From positions 1 through 64,000 of IMG/VR virus record IMGVR_UViG_3300023174_006147: a DNA stretch of 64,000 bases; one strand, 5' to 3'. The notes below the pieces were generated by a model. The model saw nothing but the letters and a program-made list of their open reading frames with translations. It had not been told where the DNA came from and made no database searches. This document shows positions 38,199 through 62,738 of this stretch, one piece after another (the stretch's first letter is position 1; each line of letters starts with the position of its first letter). A program made the translations under genes and the position numbers. Source of the stretch: a virus.

Positions 38199-39617
38199 TT
38201 AGATATCGTAACGAGGATTCATGATGGCCTTCATCATAATTCCAGTAGGAGTAAACTCCTGCATATCAGCAGCAAGCAGTGCCTTGACAATGCTTGGGCT
38301 GAAACCGCTCACGAGTGCAGCACCCGACTTGTCTGCTTTCACCGGAACGTTATCACTAGCGTTCAGGTTCCAGAAGACAACCTGCGGAACAGTATAACCT
38401 GCTTCTGCGTACTTACGTTCGATCATCTGAATTGCAGTGTCGTCGTAGTTACTGCAACAATTAAACTGCATGTCCGAGAGGATAAGCAGCATTTCAGGCA
38501 TTTCACCCTGAGGTACACCGTTCTTGACTGCAACATCAAGGATCTTGTTGAATGCAGCGTGTAGGTTAGTACTCATGCCCCATTCGCTCTTGGCCATCTG
38601 TGCAGCCTTTTCAACAACATTGCCCTTGAGAGTAACTAGTTGAGGACTGGAACTGAAAGTAAGGAAAGTGTCCTTGAACTTGCCAGTGTTCTTGTCCGCA
38701 AGATAGAGACCCAGTGAAACTGCAACGTCAAGGCAAGTAACCTCACTCTTAGAAGAGCTACCACCTGCACGACAAGTCATAGAACCCGAAACATCAACAA
38801 GTGGAAGAATGTTTGCATCCCCAACATAGTTAGGAAGTGCATTCCACTGTGCCACAACGTGATCAAGCTCAGTCTTACCCAGCGAAGGACCATAGTGACG
38901 AATGACGCCCTTAAGAACATCATACGGATATACTGCACCAGCGTTGACCTTGGCAGTAGGATCACCCTTTACCAGCTTGGCAACGTACTCAGCAAACTTA
39001 GGAGTATTGCGAGTAAATGCCTTCTTGTAGCGCGAAGCTGCAAGACTAGGAACATGGTTAAAGTTGATGTTGTCCCAATCCTTAGCACACATCTGAGTTT
39101 CAACAACCTTGGTCAGGTTAACCAGAGTCTTACGATACTGCTTAGGGCTCATACCAAGTGCAGATCGAAGTTCTGCTGCCACTGCGCCCTTGCGAGGCAT
39201 CCACTTGGCGCAAAGACCATTGCCACTGGCAAGTGCTTCTGCGATCAGTGCGTATGCTTCGGTCTTGAGATCGATGGTTTCAAAGACGAGTAGATCGTCC
39301 CATCGGCCAATTTCTGGTACCTTTGCAAGAAGTGCCTTTGCTGCATCGGGGTCAGTCTTTTCCAGCTGAACAAGGATGTCACGGAAAATCTTACGTTCGC
39401 CTGCACCGCCACGAGCGTCACGCGCCCACTGTGCAACGCGCAGTGCAATTTCTCGATTTTCCACGAATGCACCAGTAAAGGCAGGGACGATATTCTTGCC
39501 ACGGCTCGCGCCAATTGCAAAGAAAAGGTCAACGTTCTTGGACGCTGACGACTTAAGAGCCCGCATGCCGTTAGTGGTACGAGCTTCCTGGTTTGCTACT
39601 GCTTCTACAAAATTCAT
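38199..39617 (-). CDS. Ro60/TROVE-like DUF2828 protein with C-terminal vWA domain
   Basis: TTNG, RDARGGAGER, GRWDDL, AKWMPR, MIDAS DVSGSM, SDMQF, VFWNL, SGFS. Confidence 0.8.
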   Translation of the reverse strand: MNFVEAVANQEARTTNGMRALKSSASKNVDLFFAIGASRGKNIVPAFTGAFVENREIALRVAQWARDARGGAGERKIFRDILVQLEKTDPDAAKALLAKVPEIGRWDDLLVFETIDLKTEAYALIAEALASGNGLCAKWMPRKGAVAAELRSALGMSPKQYRKTLVNLTKVVETQMCAKDWDNINFNHVPSLAASRYKKAFTRNTPKFAEYVAKLVKGDPTAKVNAGAVYPYDVLKGVIRHYGPSLGKTELDHVVAQWNALPNYVGDANILPLVDVSGSMTCRAGGSSSKSEVTCLDVAVSLGLYLADKNTGKFKDTFLTFSSSPQLVTLKGNVVEKAAQMAKSEWGMSTNLHAAFNKILDVAVKNGVPQGEMPEMLLILSDMQFNCCSNYDDTAIQMIERKYAEAGYTVPQVVFWNLNASDNVPVKADKSGAALVSGFSPSIVKALLAADMQEFTPTGIMMKAIMNPRYDI

Positions 39618-39739: not shown

Positions 39740-39750
39740 CATATATTTTA

Positions 39751-39856
39751 CAGGATGTTGTGACATTAAAAGACCGGGAGTCGAACCCATTGTCACTGTC
39801 CCCACTGGACTGGCCCGCTAGTTTTGAGAGCGAATAATGATTGCGGTAATCATCCT
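39751..39856 (-). ncRNA. scaffold RNA A2 (payload includes a T arm)
   Basis: AGGATGA-TTA-CCGCA...GGGTTCGACTCCC...CATCCTG. Confidence 0.65.
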
Positions 39857-39876
39857 AAAATATGATTTGAATTAAA

Positions 39877-39940
39877 CAGGATGCCTTTTTTGCTTTTTTG
39901 ATTACAAGTCAAGTGCATAAAGGTTTGCTGCAGGCATCCT
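39877..39940 (-). ncRNA. scaffold RNA A3 (payload: Thr-UGU anticodon arm)
   Basis: AGGATGC-CTG-CAGCA...TTGA CTTGTAA TCAA...GCATCCTG. Confidence 0.7.
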
Positions 39941-39948
39941 TAAACTTA

Positions 39949-40347
39949 TTAGGTAAACGTCTTTAACGCTTTGATATCGTCACCAACATTGTCTTCCAAA
40001 ATTGGTCCAAGACCTAAGCAAGTAGTTGTTGGTTCATCGAATACTGTGAAACCAGCATCAGTCACAAGACTAGTACCACAGATATCCTTGTACTTTTCTT
40101 GTAGAGCCTTAAGCTCTTCGACGGTATCGACAATTAAGGTAATTTTATAAGCACGATCACCATTCTGGTACTTTTCTGCATCACTAGGTTCGTCAATGGC
40201 AAATCCATGTTCACCAGGAAATCTTTTTACAGAATCCCAAAAACTGTGAAGATAGGCGTGTCCTGCCTGAGTACACATCTTACCACGAATACCGTTCATT
40301 TTCTTTACCGATTCAAGGGCAAAGATACAGTACATTTTAACTTTCAT
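39949..40347 (-). CDS. pth2: peptidyl-tRNA hydrolase, Pth2 type
   Basis: GKMCTQAGHA, KITL, DAGFT, TCLGLGP; start moved to MKVKMY. Confidence 0.85.
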   Translation of the reverse strand: MKVKMYCIFALESVKKMNGIRGKMCTQAGHAYLHSFWDSVKRFPGEHGFAIDEPSDAEKYQNGDRAYKITLIVDTVEELKALQEKYKDICGTSLVTDAGFTVFDEPTTTCLGLGPILEDNVGDDIKALKTFT

Positions 40348-40365
40348 ATCTCTACCTTTCAAAAT

Positions 40366-40443
40366 TGGAGCGCCGGGCGTGATTCGAACACGCGGTGTTA
40401 CTGCTTTGCAGGCAGTTGCATTGGGCCTCTCTGCCACCGACGC
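40366..40443 (-). tRNA. tRNA-Cys(GCA)
   Basis: cloverleaf, U73, CCA. Confidence 0.9.
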
Positions 40444-48185: not shown

Positions 48186-48261
48186 TGGTGCTGTATGACG
48201 GAATCGAACCGCCGACATCCTGATTACTAAACAGGTACTCTACCAACTGAGTTAATACAGC
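48186..48261 (-). tRNA. tRNA-Thr(AGT)
   Basis: CCTGT-TTAGTAA-TCAGG, CCA. Confidence 0.85.
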
Positions 48262-48269
48262 ATTAATTT

Positions 48270-48346
48270 TGGTGGGCCCGGAGAGATTCGAACTCCCGAC
48301 ATCCTGGTTCGAAGCCAGGCGCTCTATCCAGCTGAACTACGAGCCC
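48270..48346 (-). tRNA. tRNA-Arg(TCG)
   Basis: cloverleaf + CCA. Confidence 0.9.
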
Positions 48347-49782: not shown

Positions 49783-50262
49783 TTATTTTTCTTGCCTTGA
49801 GGAAAAAACTTCTATTGCGGCTAGAATGTGTTCATCCCGCAGGCCTTCACCGTCTTCAATATACACTAGCCGTTTAGATTCAGTAAACTTTCTGTCATCA
49901 AAGCAAACCCAATCGCATTCACCATTGTCAGCGATCCACTGATTAATGGCAATTAATCTACCAATACCACGAACAGTGCTTGTCACATCTGTATAATCAA
50001 TGTTTGGAAAAATTGTTCTCCAATCATTGTGAAAATGTGTTGGATCAATCCCCCAATGTATTAAATCTTCTTTTAAAGTTTTTCCATAGGGCAAGTGATA
50101 ATTGTGCATTGAGTTGGTTACAATTTTTGCACCAGACTCAATGCACAGATCATTGAGCAATTGAATTGAAACTTTATTACAAGCTAACCGCAGTTCAGAT
50201 ACCATGACTGGAGAACTTACATTAATTATTGGACCATCAATATCTAAAAATATTATTCTCAT
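49783..50262 (-). CDS. HAD phosphatase, Swiss-army-knife RNA-repair type (HAD_SAK_2-like)
   Basis: IFLDIDG...VCFDD...GL. Confidence 0.7.
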   Translation of the reverse strand: MRIIFLDIDGPIINVSSPVMVSELRLACNKVSIQLLNDLCIESGAKIVTNSMHNYHLPYGKTLKEDLIHWGIDPTHFHNDWRTIFPNIDYTDVTSTVRGIGRLIAINQWIADNGECDWVCFDDRKFTESKRLVYIEDGEGLRDEHILAAIEVFSSRQEK

Positions 50263-51140
50263 CTTTTAATTAATTCTTCTGTTAAGTCTATAAAACGAGA
50301 AAAGTCATGTAGCTTGTTCTTCCAATCATCAGGAATTCCAGTCAGTCCATAAAATGCACCAGCAATTTGTCCTGTGACAGCGCCAACAGTATCAGCATCG
50401 TCCCCGAGGTTAACTGCCTGCAAGATAGCATCCTTAAAGTTATCCGTGTGATACACGCACCATAGGGCAGCATGAAGAGTATGGATAACATATCCAGACG
50501 AAGAAACATATTCGCGGCTAACTTCAAGTGAAGTGAGAATGTTCTTTACATCTTCTACCCAATGATCTTTAGCAGTTACATTAAAAATCCGACTCTTTTC
50601 AGTGGTGTAGATTGCATTAAGTAACACTTCCGCCATAAGTTCACATGAATGCAAACAAGCAGGTGAAGCATGAGTTGTCTCACTCTGCACGAGTGCAGTT
50701 GCCTTTGCCTTTTCTTCGTCATCGTAATGCGCAAGTACTGCTGGACTAAGTCGCATAATTGAACCATTGCCTGCGCCGAAGAAATCTGGATTATTTTTAG
50801 TTTCACCGGTTTTTTTAAAGTTAGAAATTGCAGTGCGAGTAGTGTTGCCAATATCAAAGCACCGGCCAGTAGACGAGTTTGCACCGTTATAATACCAGTC
50901 TGCAAAGCGATTAAGAAGATCGGTTTTATCAAGGTCTCGATTAGAAACTAGACTATCTGCAAGGCAAAGTGCCATACTAGTATCGTCAGTCCAATAACCT
51001 ACAGGAAGATTGAACGGTCCACCACCAAGCATGTCAGTAACCGGTTCAAAAGTATCACGATCTCTAAATTCTACAGTGGTACCAATGGCATCACCCACAG
51101 CAAGCCCAATAAATGCTCCAGCTAATTTGTCTTTTAACAT
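50259..51140 (-). CDS. ADP-ribosylglycohydrolase (DraG/ARH family)
   Basis: GDAIG, WTDDT, GNGSIMR, GDDADT. Confidence 0.92.
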   Translation of the reverse strand: MLKDKLAGAFIGLAVGDAIGTTVEFRDRDTFEPVTDMLGGGPFNLPVGYWTDDTSMALCLADSLVSNRDLDKTDLLNRFADWYYNGANSSTGRCFDIGNTTRTAISNFKKTGETKNNPDFFGAGNGSIMRLSPAVLAHYDDEEKAKATALVQSETTHASPACLHSCELMAEVLLNAIYTTEKSRIFNVTAKDHWVEDVKNILTSLEVSREYVSSSGYVIHTLHAALWCVYHTDNFKDAILQAVNLGDDADTVGAVTGQIAGAFYGLTGIPDDWKNKLHDFSRFIDLTEELIKR

Positions 51141-53751: not shown

Positions 53752-54507
53752 ATGAAAATAAAAGATCTTTTAAATGAAACCGCCATACAAGAGGGTCCGT
53801 ATGATCCTCACATTTTTAAAGCAGTTTTTATGGCCGGAGCACCAGGTGCTGGTAAAACAACTACCGCTAAAAAGCTACTCTCTGGTACAGGTCTAAGACA
53901 CCTCAATGTTGATGATTTTTATAATCTTATGAGACATAAAGGACGCGCTAGTGGCGATCAAAACAAGGATTACGAAGCATCTTGGAAAACGTATCGCGGC
54001 CTAGAAGAATTACTTCGTCAAGGTCGAATTGGTTTAATCATTGATGGTACTGCGAAGAATCCAGAAAAGATGGCTGATGTTAAAGCAGACCTAGAAGAAA
54101 TGGGTTATGAGACTGCAATGATTTTCGTTAACTCATCATTAGAAACAAGTCTCAAAAGAGCTACTGAACGTTCACAACGTCCTGGTCCAGACTTTGGAAG
54201 AGTAACTTCACCAAAACATATTGAAGATACCTGGAATAAGGTGCAAAAGGGAATAGGTTCATTACAGAACTTATTTGGAGCAAGGTTCTTTGTTATCGAT
54301 GCTGAACGTCCCGATGCCAACATTAACTATGTTGACAAGAGTATTAGATCTTGGCTTAACACGCCAGTTAAAACACAGGCAGCACGACAGTGGTTATCTG
54401 ATCCTAAAGCTGCACAAAAGCAAACAAGCACAAAGCCAGCAAAAGATGAACCTGCACAAACAACAGGTCAACGCCCTGCTGAACCGGAAACTCCCAAAGA
54501 AGTATAA
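53752..54507 (+). CDS. P-loop kinase (zeta-toxin/AAA_33-like) with MKIKDLL leader
   Basis: GAPGAGKT, NVDD, IIDGT. Confidence 0.7.
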   Translation: MKIKDLLNETAIQEGPYDPHIFKAVFMAGAPGAGKTTTAKKLLSGTGLRHLNVDDFYNLMRHKGRASGDQNKDYEASWKTYRGLEELLRQGRIGLIIDGTAKNPEKMADVKADLEEMGYETAMIFVNSSLETSLKRATERSQRPGPDFGRVTSPKHIEDTWNKVQKGIGSLQNLFGARFFVIDAERPDANINYVDKSIRSWLNTPVKTQAARQWLSDPKAAQKQTSTKPAKDEPAQTTGQRPAEPETPKEV

Positions 54508-54510
54508 AAA

Positions 54511-54612
54511 CAGGATTGTGTTTTTTGGACGGGATTTGAACCCGCTCAGTTTGCGTTGAAAGCAAATGCTCTACCATTGAGCTACCATAAGGTTTTTTGC
54601 TGAAACAATCCT
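54511..54612 (-). ncRNA. scaffold RNA A4 (D + anticodon UCA + T arms, no acceptor stem)
   Basis: AGGATTG-TTT-CAGCA...TAGCTCAATGGTAGAGC-TTTGC TTTCAAC GCAAA-CGGGTTCAAATCCCG...CAATCCTG. Confidence 0.75.
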
Positions 54613-54627
54613 AGAACTTAAATTAAA

Positions 54628-54752
54628 CAGAGTGTATTGTTCTTTACGTGCTCTACCAGCTGAGCTACCTCCCCGCAGTTGGTGGGGAGAGTTGGACTCG
54701 AACCAACGACACCGTCCTTTTCATGGATAGAATTTTATGCTGAAAACACTCT
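54628..54752 (-). ncRNA. scaffold RNA A5 (circularly permuted, YrlA-like tRNA domain)
   Basis: AGAGTGT-TTT-CAGCA...T arm-TCTCCCC ACCA ACTGC GGGGAGG-D arm...ACACTCTG. Confidence 0.8.
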
Positions 54753-55256
54753 AAAACTTTTTACATCATCTTCTGCGACATAAGATCCTAAACTTAGTAC
54801 AATTCTAGGTTTTTCGCCCTGTACAGGAGTTGATTGATGTTGCCATTCACTGGCTAAATTTAGCCAACATTGATCTTCGACAACCGTGTACTCTTGACCT
54901 TCAATAACAGGCTGACCACCACTGTGAGGTAAACTTAGTATAAAGTTTAATCTTACATGCAGCATGCCTTGATTGCTTCTAGGATCACGGTGAGGATGCA
55001 CAAAAGCACCTCGTGTGTTTACTCCTATGAAATTACCAAACATTGGTTCTTCAACTACTGAAATGCCGTAATTGCCATAGCAGTAGTTGGAAAATTCTCG
55101 TACTTTTTGAGATAATTGGGAATCTATTCTATTGAGATTACAAAATCTGCGACCTTGTCCATTGTTGACAAAATAATCAACACCACTGTTTAAGGCAAAA
55201 TCAATTATTTGCTGTTTTAAACTTTCAGGAATGGATAAGTTGGGACTTATAAACAC
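54735..55256 (-). CDS. 2OG-Fe(II) oxygenase
   Basis: HPHRD, WQH, PRIVLS; GTG start; ORF-track start lies within tRNA-Gly. Confidence 0.7.
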   Translation of the reverse strand: MFISPNLSIPESLKQQIIDFALNSGVDYFVNNGQGRRFCNLNRIDSQLSQKVREFSNYCYGNYGISVVEEPMFGNFIGVNTRGAFVHPHRDPRSNQGMLHVRLNFILSLPHSGGQPVIEGQEYTVVEDQCWLNLASEWQHQSTPVQGEKPRIVLSLGSYVAEDDVKSFRVFSA

Positions 55257-55270
55257 AGTAAATCCTAAAA

Positions 55271-55345
55271 TGGAGCGGACGAAGGGGGTCGAACCCTCGA
55301 CATCGACCTTGGCAAGGTCGCGCTCTACCACTGAGCTACGTCCGC
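55271..55345 (-). tRNA. tRNA-Gly(GCC)
   Basis: cloverleaf + CCA. Confidence 0.92.
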
Positions 55346-55509
55346 ATTAATAATATTTAGTTTACTCTCTAAGGCAATGTCTCTTATTTGAAGAGAACGG
55401 TTTTTACATACTTCACATACCCTATTATAAGACGCTAACGCAACTTAATCGTGCCTCTTCTTATAAGTCAAAGGGTCGATATGCCGGACTTCACCGAAAA
55501 CCGGTAAAT

Positions 55510-55586
55510 TGGAGGACCCGCTCGGACTTGAACCGAGAACTTACCGCTTAAAAGGCGGTTACTCTGACCTATTGAGTTACGGGTCC
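55510..55586 (-). tRNA. tRNA-Lys(TTT)
   Basis: cloverleaf + CCA. Confidence 0.9.
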
Positions 55587-55643
55587 ATAAGACTCTCAAT
55601 ATCGGCTGCAACCTTGGCCTAAACCAAGGATTTTATCTAAAAT

Positions 55644-56294
55644 TTATAGTTCAACAGTTTTTGAAATACCAGTTTGAATTGACTTATAAACATTTGTTCT
55701 TGTTGCCATCAACGGCAACAACGTATGGCGAACAAAGTTTCTGTCATACTTCTCAACGATATTAGTACTATCTTCGTTCCATATCAACTTAAAATGCAAT
55801 GCTTGATTGACAATAGTTTCTTTATCAACTTCTAAAAATGGCTTATAACGATAAAAACCATTTACCATAGTTAAAGGTCGCATTGTTAGACTATGATGCG
55901 GATCACCACGCATAAGCCTAATGAGTACATTTTCAACTTGATCATCTGCGTGATGTGCAGTCATGATATAGGTGAATCCGCGATTCCTTGCAATTTCTTC
56001 AATAAACTGCCATCTTGCCGTTCTAGCATCGACTTCATTTGAGTCTTTGGTAAGAGGACTAGTTTTATTTGTCCATAGAACTAGATTATGTTTTTGCGCA
56101 TATTCTGAAATCAAGTAGAAGTCTTTACACGAGTCTTCTCTCATATTGTGATCATAATGAACAATTTCAATGTAAACAGCACTTTTTACCAAAAAGTCTA
56201 ACAAGAAAATTGAATCAACTCCGCCTGAAACGCAGACAAGATATTTGTCGGCAGTAAACTCAATTTGTTTACGAATCTTACGCCAAGCGGTCAT
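55644..56294 (-). CDS. tilS: tRNA(Ile)-lysidine synthetase, minimal form
   Basis: SGGVDS, DHNMR, TAHHADDQ.E, EDSTN, RNFVR. Confidence 0.88.
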   Translation of the reverse strand: MTAWRKIRKQIEFTADKYLVCVSGGVDSIFLLDFLVKSAVYIEIVHYDHNMREDSCKDFYLISEYAQKHNLVLWTNKTSPLTKDSNEVDARTARWQFIEEIARNRGFTYIMTAHHADDQVENVLIRLMRGDPHHSLTMRPLTMVNGFYRYKPFLEVDKETIVNQALHFKLIWNEDSTNIVEKYDRNFVRHTLLPLMATRTNVYKSIQTGISKTVEL

Positions 56295-56312
56295 ATATAT
56301 GATCCTTAATGT

Positions 56313-56388
56313 TGGTGCTCCCGCAGGGATTTGAACCCCGAACCTATCGCTTATGAGGCGACTGCTCTCACCATTGAGCTACAGGAGC
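56313..56388 (-). tRNA. tRNA-Ile2(CAT)
   Basis: CAT anticodon, directly upstream of tilS. Confidence 0.8.
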
Positions 56389-56446
56389 ATAATGCTTTCT
56401 ATGTGCTAATTGTAGCGTAGTAAGCATGTTGTGTCAATAAAATAAA

Positions 56447-56582
56447 CGGGATGCTTTTGGTTTTGGACGGCCGCGTCTACCATTCCGCCATAGTCGCAAC
56501 AAGTACGACTAGTGGGACTCGAACCCACACATCCATTACAGATAGCTGTTTATCATTCCTAAAGTATGCAGAATGCATCCCT
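56447..56582 (-). ncRNA. scaffold RNA A6 (permuted tRNA domain, Leu-type D arm)
   Basis: GGGATGC-ATT-CTGCA...GTGGGTTCGAGTCCCAC-TAGTCG..CGACTA-TGGCGGAATGGTAGACGC...GCATCCCG. Confidence 0.75.
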
Positions 56583-56586
56583 AAAC

Positions 56587-56772
56587 TTATTGTGTAATCA
56601 TTTCTCGCATTTTGTCGGCGGATATTGTATCCGGTCGCCGATACCACAAATACTTGTGGTTATGATGATTGTAAGTTGCTATGCCTTCAATCAAGCAATA
56701 TATTGCGAACTTGCCGCCCTCAAATTCGCGAGTGCTTAGTGCATTCTGTTGAAGATATTCTAAATGCGTCAT
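56587..56772 (-). CDS. small hypothetical protein
   Basis: 61 aa. Confidence 0.4.
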   Translation of the reverse strand: MTHLEYLQQNALSTREFEGGKFAIYCLIEGIATYNHHNHKYLWYRRPDTISADKMREMITQ

Positions 56773-56924
56773 AGTTTTTTCATTTCATCTTTTGAGAGAC
56801 AATCAAGAATAAACTTCTTGACTTTGCCACGAAATCCACGTTCAGACTTCATTTTCTTACGAGCCTTCTCGTATCGCCGATGAAGCTCTTTGCTTGTGGG
56901 ATACATGATATCTCCTAAATTAAA

Positions 56925-57012
56925 CAGGATTACAGTTTTGAAGGGTTTGAACCTTCTCGTTTTTGAGTTGAAGTCAAAAATTTATCCATAAGATAAGTGC
57001 TGAAATAATCCT
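56925..57012 (-). ncRNA. scaffold RNA A7 (mini D, anticodon UCA, T arm)
   Basis: AGGATTA-TTT-CAGCA...TTTTTGA CTTCAAC TCAAAAA..GAAGGTTCAAACCCTTC...TAATCCTG. Confidence 0.7.
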
Positions 57013-57025
57013 TAAACTTAAAAAT

Positions 57026-57101
57026 TGGTACCCGGTGCAGGTTCTGCCCCCGCCGCCTCCTGCGTGTAAAGCAGGCGCTCTCCTGAATGAGCTAACCGGG
57101 C
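57026..57101 (-). tRNA. tRNA-Val(TAC), non-canonical T loop
   Basis: loop TTTACAC, T loop GGCAGAA. Confidence 0.85.
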
Positions 57102-57110
57102 ATATTAAAA

Positions 57111-57188
57111 TGGTCGGGCATGTAGGATTCGAACCTACGATCTCCTGGTCCCAAACCAGGCGCCTTAGCCAGACTAGGCCAATGCCCG
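57111..57188 (-). tRNA. tRNA-Pro(TGG)
   Basis: cloverleaf + CCA. Confidence 0.9.
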
Positions 57189-57190
57189 TT

Positions 57191-57313
57191 AAACTATTTA
57201 GAAGAACATTCCTGAACAGGATCTATTCGTTTTACAACACTCGTCTATGGGTGCAACCGTATCTATGCATTGCTAGCTTAATGCAAGACCTCGAATGTTC
57301 ATCTAAACAGTCT
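57191..57313 (-). ncRNA. family-B helix RNA B1
   Basis: AGACTGTTTAGA-T-GAACATTC...GAATGTTC-T-TCTAAATAGTTT. Confidence 0.6.
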
Positions 57314-57316
57314 AAT

Positions 57317-57380
57317 AATATTATAAGAACACACTAGTCTTTAACTACCGGCGACAGAACCAATGTGTTCGTATAATACT
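57317..57380 (-). ncRNA. family-B helix RNA B2
   Basis: AGTATTATA-C-GAACACATT...AGTGTGTTC-T-TATAATATT. Confidence 0.6.
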
Positions 57381-57384
57381 ACAA

Positions 57385-57454
57385 TTTCAAAGAACTAACA
57401 AAGCATTGCTGCTTTGTATGTGCTTATTATAATGTACTTATCAACATGTGTCAA
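57385..57454 (-). promoter_or_regulatory. consensus sigma70 promoter + boxB-like hairpin + boxA-like element
   Basis: TTGACA-N17-TATAAT, ACAAAGCA-GCAA-TGCTTTGT, GTTCTTTGAAA. Confidence 0.75.
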
Positions 57455-57706
57455 CAACTAATTTCAGAGTGGCAGTAGTTTGTTACTAGTCTCTCTGACG
57501 ATATCAACTCCAGGTTTACTAGTGTTTGTCACTGCACGAAGCTTAATCCTCTGAAGATTAGCTTGCCGATATCGTTGTTTATAACAAATCCACCGACCCA
57601 GTTGTAATTTTGAAACTCTGTAAGTTTCTGCTAGAACATCTTAGAGTGTACAAGACTCTCCGTTCCTGATGCTTGCTTGTACTGCCGGTGAACTATGTTC
57701 ACTAAA

Positions 57707-57783
57707 TGGTGGCCCCATCGGGACTCGAACCCGGTTCTCCAGCTTGAGAGGCTAGTGTCCTAACCATGTCAGACGCTGGGGCC
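57707..57783 (-). tRNA. tRNA-Glu(CTC)
   Basis: cloverleaf + CCA. Confidence 0.85.
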
Positions 57784-57790
57784 ATTAAAA

Positions 57791-57897
57791 TGGTGGACGC
57801 AACTGGATTCGAACCAGTAAGGCTGCGCGGGCCCGTCCCAATTACATCTCGACACCCATTCGATACGTTGGCTTCGACCCAACCCAATGCTACGCCC
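57791..57897 (-). ncRNA. tRNA-like RNA (acceptor + T arm + CCA, non-tRNA core)
   Basis: GGGCGTA/TGCGTCC ACCA; ACTGGTTCGAATCCAGT. Confidence 0.65.
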
Positions 57898-57906
57898 ATT
57901 TAAATT

Positions 57907-57967
57907 TGGAGGTCTATGTGGGAGTCTAACCCACTTTCAACTATGTTGATTAACAACACGTAAGACC
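57907..57967 (-). ncRNA. minimal tRNA-like RNA
   Basis: GGTCT/AGACC TCCA; T-like arm GTGGGTTAGACTCCCAC. Confidence 0.5.
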
Positions 57968-57971
57968 CATA

Positions 57972-58047
57972 TGGTGGAGCCTATCGGTATCGAACCGATC
58001 GCCTACACAATGCCATTGTGTCGCTCTCCCATCTGAGCTAATGCCCC
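57972..58047 (-). tRNA. tRNA-Ala(GGC)
   Basis: G3:U70, CCA. Confidence 0.85.
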
Positions 58048-58143
58048 AGTGTAGGATTCACACTTGCCAGAACATTTCGTTCTACCCTCCATTACATGAC
58101 CGGGCTGTGTTGATACGCTGTGCGTTCCTACTTCATCAATAAT

Positions 58144-58259
58144 TGGTGTGCAGCACTGGAGTCGAACCAGCCAATAACAAAACCATTAACATAGCGTATT
58201 TGTTTATATAACGCTACTGTGGATTTATCTGCTTCCCTTCCCAGAGGATTTCACTACAC
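58144..58259 (-). ncRNA. tRNA-like RNA (acceptor + T arm + CCA)
   Basis: GTGTAGT/GCTGCAC ACCA; CTGGTTCGACTCCAG. Confidence 0.6.
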
Positions 58260-58266
58260 ATAAAAA

Positions 58267-58360
58267 TGGCGGGACTTTTGGAATCGAACCATAACATGAT
58301 ACATGTTGCTGAAAACATTCGTTGGACGGAATGCTCCTACACCCAAGTAGGTTGAGTCCC
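58267..58360 (-). ncRNA. CCA-ending tRNA-like RNA with internal permuted family-A module
   Basis: GGGACT/AGTCCC GCCA; GCATTC..GAATGT-TTT-CAGCA. Confidence 0.7.
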
Positions 58361-58368
58361 ATTAAAAT

Positions 58369-58461
58369 TGGTGGAGGGAATTGGAGTCGAACCAATTAAT
58401 TTTGTGATGCGGTAGATATTCACTGGACTGAATACATTCTGCGCCATGCAGGATTCCCTCC
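58369..58461 (-). ncRNA. CCA-ending tRNA-like RNA with internal permuted family-A module
   Basis: GGAGGGA/TCCCTCC ACCA; GTATTCA-GTCCAG-TGAATAT-CTA-CCGCA. Confidence 0.7.
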
Positions 58462-58466
58462 GAAAC

Positions 58467-58544
58467 TGGTCTAGAAGGCAGGATTTGAACCTGCGACCCC
58501 CTCATTCCAAATGAGGTACGCTACCCTGGCTGCGCTACTCCTAG
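58467..58544 (-). tRNA. tRNA-Pro(TGG), second copy (A37)
   Basis: loop TTTGGAA, CCA. Confidence 0.85.
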
Positions 58545-58552
58545 ATAAAAAT

Positions 58553-58642
58553 TGGTGTCAGTGTGGGAATTGAACCCACTCGGACTCTACCCTCTCGACG
58601 CCTGAGAAAGAAGGGAGCCGGTTAAGCCTAACCAATACTGAC
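58553..58642 (-). ncRNA. tRNA-like RNA (acceptor + T arm + CCA)
   Basis: GTCAGT/ACTGAC ACCA; GTGGGTTCAATTCCCAC. Confidence 0.6.
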
Positions 58643-58648
58643 ATAAAA

Positions 58649-58779
58649 TGGTGGCAGCATCACCGTTTCAGCATTATTGTAGAGACTTCAAAGTTTTAGA
58701 TGTATGCCTACACCAAACTCTACTGCTTTCACCCGATGGCTTGTTCAATGTTAACTAGTATAGAACAAGTTACGCTGCC
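58649..58779 (-). ncRNA. structured RNA with acceptor-like stem and CCA
   Basis: GGCAGCG/TGCTGCC ACCA; internal CTTGTTC/GAACAAG and GTAGAG/CTCTAC helices. Confidence 0.55.
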
Positions 58780-58791
58780 GTTTTCTTAAAA

Positions 58792-58866
58792 TGGTGGAGA
58801 CGGAGGGAATCGAACCCTCAATTGAAGCTTGCAAAGCTACCGTGTTCCCGTTAGCACTACGCCCCC
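58792..58866 (-). tRNA. tRNA-Ala(TGC)
   Basis: G3:U70, CCA. Confidence 0.9.
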
Positions 58867-58868
58867 AT

Positions 58869-58947
58869 TGGTTGCAGAGGTTGGATTTGAACCAACGATT
58901 TCCGGCTTATGAGACCAGCGAGGACGACCTGACTCCTCTACTCCGCG
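58869..58947 (-). tRNA. tRNA-fMet(CAT)
   Basis: C1:A72 mismatch, CAT. Confidence 0.8.
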
Positions 58948-58963
58948 ATAAAACTTTAAAAAC

Positions 58964-59037
58964 TGGAGCGGGTGAAGGGAATCGAACCCTCATATTCAGC
59001 TTGGAAGGCTGCTGCATTACCACTATGCTACACCCGC
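58964..59037 (-). tRNA. tRNA-Gly(TCC)
   Basis: cloverleaf + CCA. Confidence 0.9.
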
Positions 59038-59041
59038 ATTA

Positions 59042-59127
59042 AAACTTTTTAGAAGAACACACTGCCCGCAGCGTCCCTGGTTCATATCTTGTCAATTCAA
59101 GACCACGGTGTATTCATCTAAAAAGTC
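59042..59127 (-). ncRNA. family-B helix RNA B3
   Basis: AGACTTTTTAGA-T-GAATACAC...GTGTGTTC-T-TCTAAAAAGTTT. Confidence 0.6.
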
Positions 59128-59203
59128 TGGTGCCCGCACGAGGATTCGAACCCCGGACCTACTGATTACAAATCAGTTGCGCTACCAACTGTGCCATACG
59201 GGC
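59128..59203 (-). tRNA. tRNA-Thr(TGT)
   Basis: cloverleaf + CCA. Confidence 0.92.
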
Positions 59204-59222
59204 GTATCAGACTTTATTAAAA

Positions 59223-59279
59223 CAGGATCCGCTTGTTTTTCACCAAAAGAAAAATTTAATTGTTTGCGGTATGGATCCT
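59223..59279 (-). ncRNA. scaffold RNA A8 (payload: Gln-UUG-like anticodon arm)
   Basis: AGGATCC-ATA-CCGCA...TTTTTC TTTTGGT GAAAAA...GGATCCTG. Confidence 0.65.
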
Positions 59280-59359
59280 TAAACTTTATAAAAATCATTA
59301 TATACTAACTTATTTATTATGTCAATATCTTTGTTTACTTAAACAGAATAAATATCTAC

Positions 59360-59959
59360 ATGAAAATTCACGAATTATTTACTGAGTCCGATTTACAAGA
59401 AGTTACTCGGCCATCACTAACACAAGCACATCGAAGGCTTCATCAAGCTGGATATTTCAAACTTGGCGAAGGATATTTTGCATCAGTCTTTTATCGTGAA
59501 GGCGAATCATCCGTTCTAAAACTATTCAGCAACAGGGATCTAGGATATATAGATTTTATTCGTTTAGTGGGTGAGAATCCCAATGTGCATTTTCCAAAAT
59601 TCTCAAGACGTGCAAAAGCTATTAAAATCACAGATGGATATTCTGCAATTCGCATGGAATTTTTAAAACCTCTTCCAGAATCAACTATATATGGCTCAAG
59701 TAGACAACTTGGTGATATTGTTTATCAATATATCTTGAAACTTAAACATGGAAAGATAGGTCCAGGTGATGAGGTGGAAATTGATCCTAAAATCGACATT
59801 GAACAATTCATGTTGAAGCTTGAACGAAAGCAACCTGGATTTATTCAGGCTTGTAAACTTATTGCAAACTCCACCCGCAGTGATAGTAACATTGACATTA
59901 GTGAAGAAAATATCATGCTTCGTGGTGGCACTCTTGTTATCACAGATCCACTTTCTTGA
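59360..59959 (+). CDS. protein kinase-like late protein with MKIHELF leader
   Basis: LGEGYFASV, VLK, ME, DISEENIM, ITDP; ATAAATA 5 nt before ATG. Confidence 0.7.
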   Translation: MKIHELFTESDLQEVTRPSLTQAHRRLHQAGYFKLGEGYFASVFYREGESSVLKLFSNRDLGYIDFIRLVGENPNVHFPKFSRRAKAIKITDGYSAIRMEFLKPLPESTIYGSSRQLGDIVYQYILKLKHGKIGPGDEVEIDPKIDIEQFMLKLERKQPGFIQACKLIANSTRSDSNIDISEENIMLRGGTLVITDPLS

Positions 59960-59969
59960 TAATTTAAAA

Positions 59970-60091
59970 CAGGATATACATTTTTTCGTTGCTCTACCAG
60001 ACTGAGCTACTTCCCCATAGGTGGCGGGGAAGGCAGGATTTGAACCTACGACCAACGGCTTGACATGCTAAAATAATGCTGTAGATATCCT
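59970..60091 (-). ncRNA. scaffold RNA A9 (circularly permuted, YrlA-like tRNA domain)
   Basis: AGGATAT-CTA-CAGCA...CGTTG-T arm-CTTCCCC GCCA CCTAT GGGGAAG-D arm-CAACG...ATATCCTG. Confidence 0.8.
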
Positions 60092-60096
60092 AAATC

Positions 60097-60195
60097 TGGA
60101 GCCGAGACACGGAATCGAACCGTATGTGGATTATACCTGGACTCCAAGTATAATTCCTATTGATTCGTACCAGCAACCTACTGGACTTACTCGGC
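60097..60195 (-). ncRNA. tRNA-like RNA (acceptor + T arm + CCA)
   Basis: GCCGAG/CTCGGC TCCA; ACGGTTCGATTCCGT. Confidence 0.6.
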
Positions 60196-60298: not shown

Positions 60299-60375
60299 TG
60301 GCGACCTCGAACGGACTCGAACCGTCAACATCCTCCTGGACAGGGAGGCGCTCTAACCAATTGAACTACGAGGCC
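60299..60375 (-). tRNA. tRNA-Asp(GTC)
   Basis: cloverleaf, G73, CCA. Confidence 0.88.
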
Positions 60376-60378
60376 ATT

Positions 60379-60483
60379 AAACTACTTGAAAGAACACACT
60401 CTCTTTAACATGAGTCCTACGAGTGCAAAAATTGAGTTAACAAACTCACTCCCCAATCTTTCATGTGTTCATCAAAATAGTCT
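60379..60483 (-). ncRNA. family-B helix RNA B4
   Basis: AGACTATTTTGA-T-GAACACAT...GTGTGTTC-TTTCAAGTAGTTT. Confidence 0.6.
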
Positions 60484-62658: not shown

Positions 62659-62738
62659 TGGTGCCTCCGGACAGGTTCGAACTGCCGACACCTGTGGCTT
62701 CAACACAGTGCTCTACCTAAATACTGAGCTACGGAGGC
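62659..62738 (-). tRNA. tRNA-Phe(GAA)
   Basis: loop TTGAAGC, enlarged D loop. Confidence 0.85.

What the first reader, a model, noticed from the sequence alone, without database searches (positions are those of the whole stretch)
54628..60091. Three circularly permuted tRNA domains (T arm, closed acceptor stem, D arm), two retaining an internal NCCA
A5, A6 and A9 read T arm first, then the acceptor 3' strand, a short loop, the acceptor 5' strand, then the D arm. The anticodon stem opens into the scaffold (CGTTG/CAACG in A9; TGGATG/CGTCCA in A6). This is the YrlA topology. A5 (TCTCCCC-ACCA-ACTGC-GGGGAGG) and A9 (CTTCCCC-GCCA-CCTAT-GGGGAAG) keep discriminator + CCA in the loop. RNase P cleavage plus 3' trimming would therefore give a two-piece, potentially chargeable, anticodon-less RNA, as happens for permuted two-piece tmRNA. 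A6 has a Leu-type D arm, which suggests independent origins from different tRNAs.
Basis: partly seen in the sequence, partly recalled or inferred. Interest (0 to 1): 0.85.

Follow-up and report, generated by a model that had tools for sequence, protein, structure and literature searches.

The report
Handle-tagged permuted tRNAs of phage Ro-like protein
The three odd sequences are real, conserved small RNA genes of a giant phage: whole tRNAs in rearranged order, each fused to a shared "handle". They belong to a large phage RNA family missing from Rfam, which sits beside genes for a Ro60-like ring protein and is probably that protein's partner RNA.

Summary
On the minus strand, A5 (54623-54758), A6 (56442-56586) and A9 (59965-60096) each read T arm, 7-bp closed acceptor hairpin, UA, D arm. 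A5 has ACCA and A9 has GCCA directly after the acceptor 3' strand.

They are not decayed tRNA junctions. Orthologues in phages whose neighbouring TilS-like protein is only 57-64% identical are almost unchanged, and their few changes keep the pairing. A model built from 27 relatives finds 80 distinct members in phage tRNA arrays, and only one of the 84 matches overlaps an ARAGORN tRNA. All share a handle: a basal stem followed by ACAGCA(A/U).

The family co-occurs with DUF2828 genes and often lies directly upstream of them. The window has such a gene at 38199-39617. Its model matches only Ro60/TROVE structures over the full length. In one complete phage the RNAs abut a canonical TROVE gene instead.

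- A5 and A9 are not anticodon-less. They keep a split 5-bp anticodon stem and a 7-nt loop (GAA with A73; GUC with G73), as do 44 of 72 relatives.
- An internal NCCA is a family trait (23 of 72, about 1 expected).

RNase P opening is plausible, with M. smegmatis YrlA as precedent, but untested. This scan has noted the same RNA-protein pairing many times on other DNA.

The parts
54623..54758 (-). A5: handle RNA carrying a permuted tRNA-Phe-like body. P1 AGAGTGT (54752-54746) pairs with ACACTCT (54635-54629). Handle motif CAGCA at 54742-54738. Anticodon loop ATGAAAA at 54724-54718 (GAA at 54722-54720). T arm 54707-54691. Acceptor 3' strand 54690-54684. ACCA 54683-54680. Linker ACTGC 54679-54675. 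Acceptor 5' strand 54674-54668. D arm 54665-54650. Stub CGT 54648-54646.
   Evidence: Sequence read. R1 116.4 bits. Rfam YrlA 35.2 bits. Orthologues L239:11617-11751 and L244:2921-3057. Split anticodon stem found.
56442..56586 (-). A6: handle RNA with a degenerate permuted tRNA body. P1 GGGATGC (56581-56575) pairs with GCATCCC (56454-56448). Variant handle CTGCA at 56571-56567. T arm 56528-56512. Acceptor hairpin TAGTCGT / loop ACTTGTT / GCGACTA at 56511-56491. 3-bp-stem D arm 56488-56473. No CCA and no canonical anticodon loop.
   Evidence: Sequence read. R1 48.3 bits, E 1e-8, full length. Orthologue L243:3128-3268 has a compensatory acceptor change and an unchanged loop and handle.
59965..60096 (-). 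A9: handle RNA carrying a permuted tRNA-Asp-like body. P1 AGGATAT (60091-60085) pairs with ATATCCT (59977-59971). Handle CAGCA at 60081-60077. Anticodon loop ATGTCAA at 60066-60060 (GTC at 60064-60062). T arm 60049-60033. Acceptor 3' strand 60032-60026. GCCA 60025-60022. Linker CCTAT 60021-60017. Acceptor 5' strand 60016-60010. D arm 60007-59991. Stub ACG 59989-59987.
   Evidence: Sequence read. R1 112.3 bits. Rfam YrlA 43.8 bits. Orthologue L239:5887-6017. Close relative L188:3634-3765 has a covarying acceptor and a GTG loop.
38199..39617 (-). Gene for a 472-aa DUF2828 + DUF7788 protein, predicted to be a Ro60-like HEAT-repeat ring plus vWA domain. It is the proposed protein partner of the handle RNAs. 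A TTGACG-N17-TATAAT promoter-like site lies just upstream, at about 39745-39715.
   Evidence: Pfam hits: PF11443 4.5e-22 and PF25043 2.9e-49. AlphaFold model pLDDT 89.7. The top 12 PDB matches are all Ro60/TROVE, E 5e-8 to 3e-5, TM 0.39-0.63 (0.50 or more except D. radiodurans Rsr) over the full length. The promoter was read by eye.
39872..39945 (-). X1: a handle RNA with no tRNA body (stem GGATGCCT, then GCAGCAA, ... AGGCATCC, then TGTTT). It lies upstream of the DUF2828 gene on the same strand.
   Evidence: Sequence read. R1 29.8 bits, E 2.9e-4.
39746..39861 (-). X2: a handle RNA (variant motif CCGCAA) whose only tRNA-like part is a T-arm-like GGGTTCGACTCCC. It lies directly upstream of the DUF2828 promoter.
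   Evidence: Sequence read. R1 18.3 bits, E 0.16, which is weak.
54506..54617 (-). Handle RNA with an ordinary-order tRNA-like body (anticodon UCA) and a poorly paired acceptor. It lies immediately 3' of A5.
   Evidence: ARAGORN and Rfam tRNA, 62 bits. R1 25.8 bits. Acceptor 4 of 7 pairs, read by eye.
56920..57017 (-). Second handle RNA with an ordinary-order tRNA-like body (UCA).
   Evidence: ARAGORN. Rfam tRNA 24.3 bits, below threshold. R1 23.2 bits.
59218..59284 (-). Empty handle hairpin (GGATCC...GGATCC, then TGTTTT).
   Evidence: R1 27.6 bits. Sequence read.

Best explanation
A5, A6 and A9 are genes for small non-coding RNAs of one modular family. Each RNA has two parts.

- A conserved 'handle'. 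The 5' and 3' ends pair into a 7-10 bp basal stem. On the 5' side the stem is followed by single-stranded (Y)ACAGCA(A/U). On the 3' side it is followed by CUGUU.
- A cargo. Here the cargo is a tRNA in circularly permuted order.

In A5 and A9 the whole tRNA is present. The handle enters through a break in the 5' strand of the anticodon stem, at about position 28/29 or 29/30. The anticodon loop (GAA or GUC), T arm, D arm and 7-bp acceptor stem can therefore all form. The acceptor end is closed by RCCA plus a 5-nt linker.

By analogy with Ro60 and its Y RNAs, I infer that the handle is bound by the phage's own Ro60-like DUF2828 protein. The tRNA-shaped cargo would then be the effector module that engages tRNA-recognising factors. 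Candidates are RNase P, modification enzymes, synthetases, and possibly host tRNA-targeting nucleases or repair enzymes.

A5 and A9 are good candidates for opening by RNase P at the linker/G+1 junction and trimming back to CCA. That would give a two-piece RNA held together by the acceptor, anticodon and basal stems.

Shown here: the sequence anatomy, the conservation and covariation, the family, the genomic association with Ro-like genes, and the Ro60-like fold prediction.

Inferred: protein binding, processing, and the biological role.
For: - Anatomy read directly from the sequence.
- Partial Rfam YrlA matches to the tRNA-like module only, model positions 23-87/89 of 114.
- Orthologues in phages whose neighbouring TilS-like protein is 57-64% identical are nearly unchanged. 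Their changes preserve structure: A5 acceptor TCTCCCC to CCTTCCC, T stem GTTGG/CCAAC to GGTGG/CCATC, A6 acceptor TAGTCGT/GCGACTA to TAGACGT/ACGTCTA.
- Covariation on 27 members: 97.3% of cells paired against 67% when shuffled. The covariation score is 0.84 against 0.22, and it collapses when the partners are slid. The 3-bp stub helix, which I did not select for, is 92.6% paired and all 3 of its pairs covary.
- Model R1 finds 84 matches (80 distinct) in phage tRNA arrays. Only 1 overlaps an ARAGORN tRNA.
- 44 of 72 members have a split 5-bp anticodon stem and a 7-nt loop in the exact tRNA register, against 0-3 of 72 in shifted registers. 34 of these have U33 and R37.
- NCCA starts the acceptor loop in 23 of 72 members (19 of 66 clusters, about 1 expected, p about 1e-19 to 1e-25). 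CCA occurs at no later place in these loops; the only other cases are two loops that begin with CCA and have no discriminator.
- Partner gene: DUF2828 is in the window with two handle RNAs directly upstream on the same strand.
- Among 39 large IMG/VR phage records, 17 of 19 with a strong RNA match have DUF2828, against 5 of 20 without one (Fisher p 7e-5). RNAs abut the gene in G042, G033, G031, G024, G008, G020 and Vibrio phage BUCT194.
- In complete record G022, which has no DUF2828, three family RNAs lie directly upstream of a canonical TROVE gene.
- The DUF2828 model (pLDDT 89.7) matches Ro60/Rsr/phage phiLo Ro60 over its full length and nothing else beyond vWA domains.
- Precedents: Ro60 binds the 5' strand of the Y RNA stem, and M. 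smegmatis YrlA is cut by RNase P and gets CCA (PMC4201824). Phage phiLo Ro60 binds phage Y-like RNAs (PMC12135203).
Against: - No binding, expression or processing data exist for these RNAs.
- The handle motif ACAGCA differs from the GNCGAA(N)G / CGAA motif of YrlA and the phiLo Yrl RNAs. No element reaches Rfam's YrlA threshold of 69 bits.
- A5, A6 and A9 lie 15-21 kb from the DUF2828 gene, inside the tRNA array.
- The co-occurrence sample was drawn with sequence patterns, and its records are not phylogenetically independent.
- Part of the pairing statistics is circular. I selected members for at least 6 of 7 acceptor pairs and for a basal stem, and the D arm and part of the T arm were fixed by the search pattern.
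- The internal RCCA could be a relic of origin from tandem tRNA genes with encoded CCA rather than a selected feature. Many loops look like one-step decays of ACCA (ACCT, ACAA, ACTA, ACTG).
- Single-sequence folding energies are only weakly better than shuffles, z -1.3 to -1.7.
Confidence: 0.7

Rival explanations
1. A5 and A9 are true permuted tRNA genes. The handle is excised, and the two ends are ligated to restore the anticodon stem through a circular intermediate. RNase P and 3' trimming then open the acceptor end. The product would be ordinary tRNA-Phe(GAA) and tRNA-Asp(GUC) that work in translation, as for the permuted tRNA genes of Cyanidioschyzon.
For: - Complete tRNA bodies are present. 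The two parts of the anticodon stem add up to exactly 5 bp, the loops are canonical (U33, R37), the acceptor is 7 bp, and RCCA is encoded with the discriminator expected for Phe (A73) and Asp (G73) (sequence; the identity rules are from general knowledge).
- The same design recurs with many different anticodons.
- RNA-repair-type genes lie nearby: a HAD_SAK_2 domain protein, an AAA_33/zeta-type kinase and PTH2.
- Wang et al. (bioRxiv 10.1101/312249) raised this possibility for YrlA.
Against: - The phage already has standard tRNA-Phe(gaa) at 62659-62738 and tRNA-Asp(gtc) at 60299-60375.
- No bacterial or phage enzyme is known that would excise such a handle.
- The handle is conserved in sequence, not only in structure, and also occurs with no cargo, with a T arm only, or with bodies that lack an anticodon loop or CCA (A6, X1, X2; 28 of 72 relatives).
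- The handle RNAs track Ro-like genes.
Confidence: 0.1
2. The tRNA-shaped cargo acts on its own as a decoy or sponge for host tRNA-targeting defence nucleases or for tRNA-modifying enzymes. In this reading the Ro-like protein is only co-inherited or plays a minor stabilising role.
For: - Intact anticodon loops with diverse anticodons are displayed on otherwise non-decoding RNAs.
- The elements sit in phage tRNA arrays, which are thought to offset host attacks on tRNA (general knowledge).
- A5, A6 and A9 are 15-21 kb from the DUF2828 gene.
Against: - It does not explain the conserved handle sequence shared by cargo-less members.
- It does not explain the frequent placement directly upstream of Ro-like genes of two different families.
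Confidence: 0.12
3. They are non-functional leftovers: junctions of two decayed tandem tRNA genes, that is tRNA pseudogenes, as the relatives in KVP40 are annotated.
For: - RCCA plus a short linker looks exactly like a tRNA-tRNA junction in this array.
- KVP40 annotates its relatives as tRNA-Pseudo-3/4/5.
Against: - The elements are nearly identical in phages whose neighbouring TilS-like protein is only 57-64% identical.
- There are compensatory changes in four helices.
- There are 80 distinct members sharing a non-tRNA handle.
- The family is consistently associated with Ro-like genes.
Confidence: 0.03

Closest known systems
YrlA-type bacterial and mycobacteriophage Y RNAs bound by Ro60/Rsr (Rfam RF02553; Chen et al. 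2014, PMC4201824; structure in Wang et al. 2018, bioRxiv 10.1101/312249)
   Same: - Modular RNA whose 5' and 3' ends pair in a stem that carries a single-stranded motif near the 5' end.
- The effector module is a tRNA mimic in permuted order: T arm, closed acceptor stem, D arm.
- The genes often lie upstream of a Ro-like gene on the same strand.
- M. smegmatis YrlA, with a 7-bp acceptor, is cut by RNase P and receives CCA.
   Different: - The handle motif is ACAGCA(A/U), not GNCGAAN0-1G.
- None reaches the Rfam threshold, and only the tRNA module aligns.
- The partner is usually a DUF2828/DUF7788 protein, not a Pfam TROVE protein.
- Many members, including A5 and A9, keep the anticodon loop and an encoded RCCA. 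S. Typhimurium YrlA, the one whose structure is solved, lacks both a free CCA end and an anticodon loop.
- There are several copies per genome with interchangeable cargo, and they are embedded in phage tRNA arrays.
Thermus phage phiLo Ro60 with Yrl1/Yrl2 (PMC12135203; PDB 9KOP, 9L5Y)
   Same: A phage-encoded Ro60-type ring protein with phage-encoded partner RNAs just upstream of its gene. The structure is among the top fold matches to the window's DUF2828 model.
   Different: The phiLo RNAs were picked by their CGAA motif and stem-bulge-stem shape, and no tRNA body is reported for them. The phiLo protein is named a TROVE domain-containing protein in its PDB entries (9KOP, 9L5Y).
Circularly permuted tRNA genes of Cyanidioschyzon merolae and some other algae and archaea (as cited in bioRxiv 10.1101/312249)
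   Same: The 3' half precedes the 5' half. The acceptor end is initially closed by a linker. The termini pair next to the anticodon region.
   Different: Those are matured into working tRNAs by the eukaryotic/archaeal splicing endonuclease and a ligase at a bulge-helix-bulge motif. Here there is a conserved sequence handle, cargo-less relatives and a Ro-like partner gene, and no known excision enzyme.
Two-piece (permuted) tmRNA
   Same: A permuted gene order gives, after processing, a two-piece RNA with a tRNA-like domain and a free CCA end.
   Different: There is no mRNA-like tag reading frame here. Rfam's tmRNA_permuted gives only chance-level hits elsewhere in the region, 17-19 bits with E above 1.

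Membership tests
YrlA (Rfam RF02553) | Score at or above the curated gathering threshold (69 bits) over the whole 114-position model | tested here: not met
   A9 scores 43.8 bits and A5 35.2 bits, over model positions 23-87/89 only. A6 has no hit. Twelve related phage loci also gave no YrlA hit at threshold.
YrlA (Rfam RF02553) | tRNA-like module in the order T arm, closed acceptor stem, D arm, with the T-loop and D-loop consensus | tested here: met
   Read directly. The cmscan alignments show that all three helices of the module match.
YrlA (Rfam RF02553) | GNCGAAN0-1G motif near the 5' end, the proposed Ro60 contact (PMC4201824) | tested here: not met
   The 5' modules read TTTCAGCATAAAA (A5), ATTCTGCATAC (A6) and CTACAGCATTA (A9). 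The family consensus is ACAGCAA.
YrlA (Rfam RF02553) | Encoded within about 4 kb of a Ro60/TROVE (PF05731) gene, on the same strand | tested here: not met
   There is no PF05731 match in the 84-kb contig. The Ro-like gene present is DUF2828-type, 15-21 kb from A5, A6 and A9, although handle RNAs X1 and X2 do abut it.
Ro60/Y-RNA-type ribonucleoprotein (functional class) | The partner protein has the Ro60 architecture: a HEAT-repeat ring plus a vWA domain with a MIDAS motif | tested here: met
   AlphaFold model pLDDT 89.7, pTM 0.89. The 12 best PDB matches are all Ro60/Rsr/TROVE over the full length, E 5e-8 to 3e-5. A profile-to-PDB sequence search also puts Ro60 first, but weakly, E 0.17. This is a prediction only.
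Ro60/Y-RNA-type ribonucleoprotein (functional class) | The RNA genes are genomically linked to the Ro-like gene across many genomes | tested here: met
   17 of 19 RNA-positive against 5 of 20 other large phage records carry DUF2828. The RNAs are directly adjacent to the gene in at least 7 genomes. In G022 they are adjacent to a canonical TROVE gene.
Ro60/Y-RNA-type ribonucleoprotein (functional class) | The protein physically binds the RNA stem or handle | not testable with these tools
   No protein-RNA docking or experimental data are available here.
Permuted tRNA genes that mature into working tRNAs | All tRNA parts are present and can be rejoined into a canonical cloverleaf | tested here: met
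   A5 and A9 each have a 5-bp split anticodon stem, a 7-nt loop with U33 and R37, a 5-nt variable loop, T and D arms, a 7-bp acceptor and RCCA. A6 does not.
Permuted tRNA genes that mature into working tRNAs | A processing signal and enzymes exist to excise the junction and ligate the ends (a bulge-helix-bulge motif and a splicing endonuclease) | not tested
   No such motif or enzyme is known in bacteria or phages. I did not search the contig for RNA ligases. Only 22% of the genome is in hand.

The most novel reading that the evidence does not exclude
A5 and A9 are complete tRNA-Phe and tRNA-Asp bodies that stay tethered, through the handle, to a Ro60-like ring. RNase P opens them at the internal RCCA/linker junction, giving a two-piece tRNA with a free CCA end and an exposed anticodon loop that can be aminoacylated. 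The phage would then hold a set of protein-bound tRNA baits with interchangeable anticodons. It could use them to capture, neutralise or report on host factors that attack or read tRNAs, such as anticodon nucleases, or to feed damaged tRNA-like ends into repair.
Probability: 0.2. Interest if true: 0.85.

Novelty: new variant of a known kind. Interest (0 to 1): 0.66.

Why it matters
Ro60/Y-RNA particles are known from animals, some bacteria and a few phages, and what their tRNA-like modules do is still open. This family shows three things:

- A second, much larger group of Ro-like proteins has its own partner-RNA family. The DUF2828 group has more than 6000 clusters at 50% identity.
- The handle of these RNAs is portable. 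It is attached to whole tRNAs with many different anticodons, to fragments, or to nothing.
- A third of the permuted tRNAs keep a purine-CCA exactly where RNase P and 3' trimming would expose it.

This gives concrete, cheap experiments in cultured phages (KVP40, BUCT194, Rhizobium RHph phages) on what a Ro-bound tRNA mimic does during infection. It would also correct annotations that call these genes tRNA pseudogenes or mis-assign them as tRNAs.

Tried and rejected
- A near-identity search of GenBank phages with the 6-kb region found only a tRNA-Thr match, so there is no close cultured relative.
- A single-protein scan of IMG/VR with the TilS-like neighbour found only relatives at about 30% identity. 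An alignment-based scan was needed.
I could not fetch the contigs of 200-367 kb or more that carry the close homologues (DUF2828 74-85% identical; TilS-like 60-63%).
- There is no Pfam TROVE match in the 84-kb contig.
- phmmer of the DUF2828 protein against PDB sequences found nothing. A profile search put Ro60 first, but only at E 0.17.
- Single-sequence folding: the MFE structures contain the basal stem, T arm and acceptor hairpin, but the z-scores are only -1.3 to -1.7.
- Expression: one lake metatranscriptome run holds a 188-nt contig that covers all of A5 plus 45 nt beyond it. The contig shows the L239-type, structure-preserving acceptor variant. Contigs cannot show ends, strand or true transcription, and DNA carry-over is possible, so I do not count this as evidence.
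- I compared the halves of A5, A6 and A9 with the contig's 41 tRNAs. None is a recent copy of a resident tRNA; the best local scores are 17-23 over 34-47 nt.
- I considered whether GUN anticodons (the queuosine family) were special. The larger sample shows many other anticodons (UUU, UGU, UGG, GCC, GAU and others), so I dropped the idea.
- I considered whether the NCCA enrichment came from tandem tRNA junctions picked up by the model. Only 1 of 84 hits overlaps an ARAGORN tRNA.
- The R1 hit at 48214-48336 is a genuine tRNA-Arg/tRNA-Thr junction, not a family member.

Full report
**Setting.** The window is the first 64 kb of an 84,474-base IMG/VR virus contig that CheckV rates about 22% complete, so it is a fragment of a giant phage. 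From about 40 to 64 kb the minus strand carries 40 ARAGORN tRNAs (41 in the whole contig). Small genes are interspersed among them:
- PTH2-like protein
- GDSL-like lipase/acylhydrolase
- HAD_SAK_2 'RNA repair' domain protein
- ADP-ribosylglycohydrolase
- AAA_33/zeta-type kinase
- TilS-like PP-loop protein
- GIY-YIG and HNH homing endonucleases

**Observation.**
- A5 (54758 to 54623): T arm GTTGGTTCGAGTCCAAC, acceptor 3' strand TCTCCCC, ACCA, ACTGC, acceptor 5' strand GGGGAGG, TA, D arm GCTCAGCTGGTAGAGC.
- A9 (60096 to 59965): GTAGGTTCAAATCCTGC, CTTCCCC, GCCA, CCTAT, GGGGAAG, TA, GCTCAGTCTGGTAGAGC.
- A6 (56586 to 56442): GTGGGTTCGAGTCCCAC, TAGTCGT, loop ACTTGTT, GCGACTA, TG, GCGGAATGGTAGACGC.

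Rfam's YrlA model matches the tRNA-like module of A9 (43.8 bits) and A5 (35.2 bits). Only model positions 23-87/89 of 114 align, and both scores are below the 69-bit threshold. ARAGORN calls none of the three a tRNA.

**They are conserved genes, not debris.**
- Using an alignment of TilS-like neighbours, I fetched related phage contigs.
- Where the TilS-like protein is only 57-64% identical, the A5 orthologues (L239:11617-11751 and L244:2921-3057), the A9 orthologue (L239:5887-6017) and the A6 orthologue (L243:3128-3268) are almost unchanged.
- Their few changes keep the pairing. The A5 acceptor goes from TCTCCCC to CCTTCCC against GGGGAGG. The A5 T stem goes from GTTGG/CCAAC to GGTGG/CCATC. 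The A6 acceptor goes from TAGTCGT/GCGACTA to TAGACGT/ACGTCTA.
- ACCA and GCCA are kept, while the linker changes (ACTGC to ACTAT; CCTAT to CTTAT). The sample is too small to prove selection on CCA.

**A large family with a shared handle.**
- Pattern scans of IMG/VR for 'T loop ... D arm' returned many tandem tRNAs. They also returned permuted, acceptor-closed elements that overlap no predicted tRNA.
- Of the 16 such elements in the first scan, whose pattern did not require any handle, 7 carry the same scaffold as A5 and A9. The scaffold is a 7-10 bp stem made by the two ends, followed on the 5' side by (Y)ACAGCAA and on the 3' side by CUGUU.
- On an alignment of 27 members (A2), the five helices are 97.3% paired against 67% in shuffles. 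The covariation score is 0.84 against 0.22 and collapses to 0.06-0.18 when partners are slid.
- Part of this is circular. I selected for at least 6 of 7 acceptor pairs and for a basal stem, and the search pattern fixed the D arm. The 3-bp stub helix between the D and T arms was not selected, and it is still 92.6% paired with all three pairs covarying.
- A covariance model (R1) scores A5 at 116 bits, A9 at 112 and A6 at 48 (E 1e-8, full length).
- In the same contig R1 also picks up five weaker handle elements: two with no cargo, one with only a T arm, and two with an ordinary-order tRNA-like body bearing UCA.
- Across the loci I hold, R1 finds 84 matches, 80 of them distinct. Only one overlaps an ARAGORN tRNA.
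- Cultured phages carry relatives. KVP40 annotates them as 'tRNA-Pseudo-3/4/5'. phi-pp2 mis-calls them tRNA-Phe and tRNA-Asn. Most other records leave them unannotated.

**The partner gene.**
- In Vibrio phage BUCT194 the RNA lies directly upstream of a 'DUF2828' gene.
- The window itself encodes a 472-aa DUF2828 + DUF7788 protein at 38199-39617 on the minus strand. A TTGACG-N17-TATAAT site and two handle RNAs (X1, X2) lie directly upstream on the same strand.
- Four of five other records with the RNA also have the gene. The fifth is a 9-kb fragment.
- In 39 large IMG/VR records, 17 of 19 with a full-length RNA match of 60 bits or more have a DUF2828 match, against 5 of 20 of the rest. Three of those five have 42-55-bit full-length RNA matches that abut the gene (Fisher p 7e-5 and 1e-6).
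- The RNA is immediately upstream of the gene, on the same strand, in G042, G033, G031, G024, G008 and G020.
- G022 is a complete genome with three family RNAs and no DUF2828. It has a canonical TROVE gene directly downstream of those RNAs. This links the family to classical Ro/Y systems.
- The records are not phylogenetically independent and were sampled with sequence patterns. The p-values are therefore only indicative.

**The protein is Ro60-like.**
- An AlphaFold model built on 57 diverse homologues has pLDDT 89.7 and pTM 0.89.
- Its 12 best Foldseek matches in the PDB are all Ro60/TROVE proteins aligned over the full length: Xenopus and human Ro60, D. radiodurans Rsr, and Thermus phage phiLo Ro60. 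E-values run from 5e-8 to 3e-5 and TM-scores are 0.50-0.63 for all but D. radiodurans Rsr (0.39). The next matches cover only the vWA domain.
- Sequence methods barely see the relationship.

A lead from two other first-stage notes on this genome (e1-6107751, e1-6107752) made me test whether the anticodon arm survives. It does.
- In A5 the segment before the variable loop reads CC-ATGAAAA-GGACG, and the segment after the D arm reads A-CGT. CGT plus CC then pairs with GGACG, giving a 5-bp anticodon stem and a U33-GAA-A37 loop.
- In A9, GC-ATGTCAA-GCCGT pairs with ACG, and the loop carries GUC.
- The handle therefore enters through a break in the 5' strand of the anticodon stem, and the RNAs are whole tRNAs in permuted order.
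- Across the family, 44 of 72 members have this split 5-bp stem with a 7-nt loop in the exact tRNA register, against 0-3 of 72 in registers shifted by 1-6 nt. 34 of them have U33 and R37. The break leaves 2 or 3 distal pairs in 37 of the 44.
- The anticodons are diverse: GAA, GUC, GUG, GUU, GAU, UUU, UGU, GGU, UGG, GCC, UCC and others.
- A6 has neither a canonical loop nor CCA and looks like a more derived member.
- None of the three is a recent copy of a tRNA in the contig.

**The internal NCCA.**
- NCCA begins the acceptor loop in 23 of 72 members and in 19 of 66 sequence clusters, where about 1 is expected (p about 1e-19 to 1e-25).
- The discriminator is a purine in 20 of 23. CCA occurs at no later place in these loops; the only other cases are two loops that begin with CCA directly, with no discriminator.
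- The linker after CCA is 1-10 nt long and ends in U in 17 of 23.
- The junction therefore looks just like a tRNA-to-tRNA junction in a phage array, which RNase P and 3' exonucleases resolve.
- M. smegmatis YrlA, which has a 7-bp acceptor, is cut by RNase P and receives CCA in vivo (PMC4201824).
- Against a strict requirement: two thirds of the family lack RCCA, and many loops look like decayed ACCA. RCCA may be a relic of an origin from tandem tRNA genes, a route already proposed for YrlA (bioRxiv 10.1101/312249). I cannot tell the two apart with these data.

**Mechanism, with what is shown and what is inferred.**
- Shown: the modular RNA anatomy, the conservation, the covariation, the family, the linkage to Ro-like genes of two families, and the predicted Ro60-like fold.
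- Inferred: the Ro-like protein binds the handle, the tRNA body is the effector or bait module, and RCCA-type members such as A5 and A9 are opened by RNase P.
- The biological role is open. Candidates are tRNA surveillance or repair, or countering host attacks on tRNAs. The neighbouring genes fit such a role but do not prove it.

**Comparison with what is known.** The closest described system is Ro60/Rsr with YrlA. The elements work like YrlA but fail three of its four membership features: the Rfam threshold, the GNCGAA motif, and adjacency to a PF05731 gene. I therefore file them as a new variant of the Ro/Y-RNA kind, not as YrlA. I found no paper describing DUF2828 as Ro-like or describing this handle RNA family. 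The library does not hold every paper.

**Earlier notes in this scan.** This scan has noted the same pairing many times on other DNA: 462 notes in at least 339 genomes hold the search words, and several follow-ups reached the same reading. Those notes are not independent evidence. Everything cited above was tested here.

Noticed in passing
window 54506-54617 (-) and 56920-57017 (-): Two elements carry the same handle but an ordinary-order tRNA-like body with a UCA anticodon. ARAGORN calls them 'tRNA-SeC tca'; Rfam tRNA scores them 62 and 24 bits. The acceptor stem pairs poorly (4 of 7 in the first, by eye). They may be handle-tagged opal-suppressor-like tRNAs or mimics.
   Followed up: partly
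window 57200-58800 and 60100-60190 (-): There are many oversized or odd tRNA-like sequences ending in CCA that ARAGORN skips, for example 57790-57900 and 58130-58260. Weak tRNA-Sec-type hits lie at 58373-58461 and 58555-58644. These may be tRNAs with insertions or further mimics.
   Followed up: no
window about 57195-57310, 59045-59125, 60385-60475: A second repeated flank pair (plus strand AGAAGAACAC ... GTTCATCTAAA) brackets roughly 80-110-nt segments just 3' of tRNA-Pro, tRNA-Gly and tRNA-Asp. It may be another structured RNA family.
   Followed up: no
window 39949-40437, 49783-50262, 50259-51140, 53752-54507, 55644-56294: Genes with a tRNA or RNA-repair flavour are interleaved with the array: PTH2-like peptidyl-tRNA hydrolase, HAD_SAK_2 domain protein, ADP-ribosylglycohydrolase, AAA_33/zeta-type kinase, and a short TilS-like PP-loop protein.
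   Followed up: partly
G022:C1:102507-104029 (IMG/VR record behind L136/L271): A complete 167-kb phage has three handle RNAs directly upstream of a canonical TROVE (PF05731) gene instead of DUF2828. It is a natural bridge between the two Ro-like families.
   Followed up: partly
L227 (Vibrio phage KVP40, NC_005083.2 about 179.3-181.2 kb): Family members are annotated as tRNA-Pseudo-3/4/5. In phi-pp2 and phi-Grn1 the same place is annotated as tRNA-Phe and tRNA-Asn. These look like annotation errors that would be worth correcting.
   Followed up: partly
window 55590-55640 (-): A hairpin CCTTGG-TTTA-GGCCAAGG followed by TTGCAGC lies directly 5' of tRNA-Lys(ttt). It looks like a handle-like 5' module attached to a genuine tRNA.
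   Followed up: no
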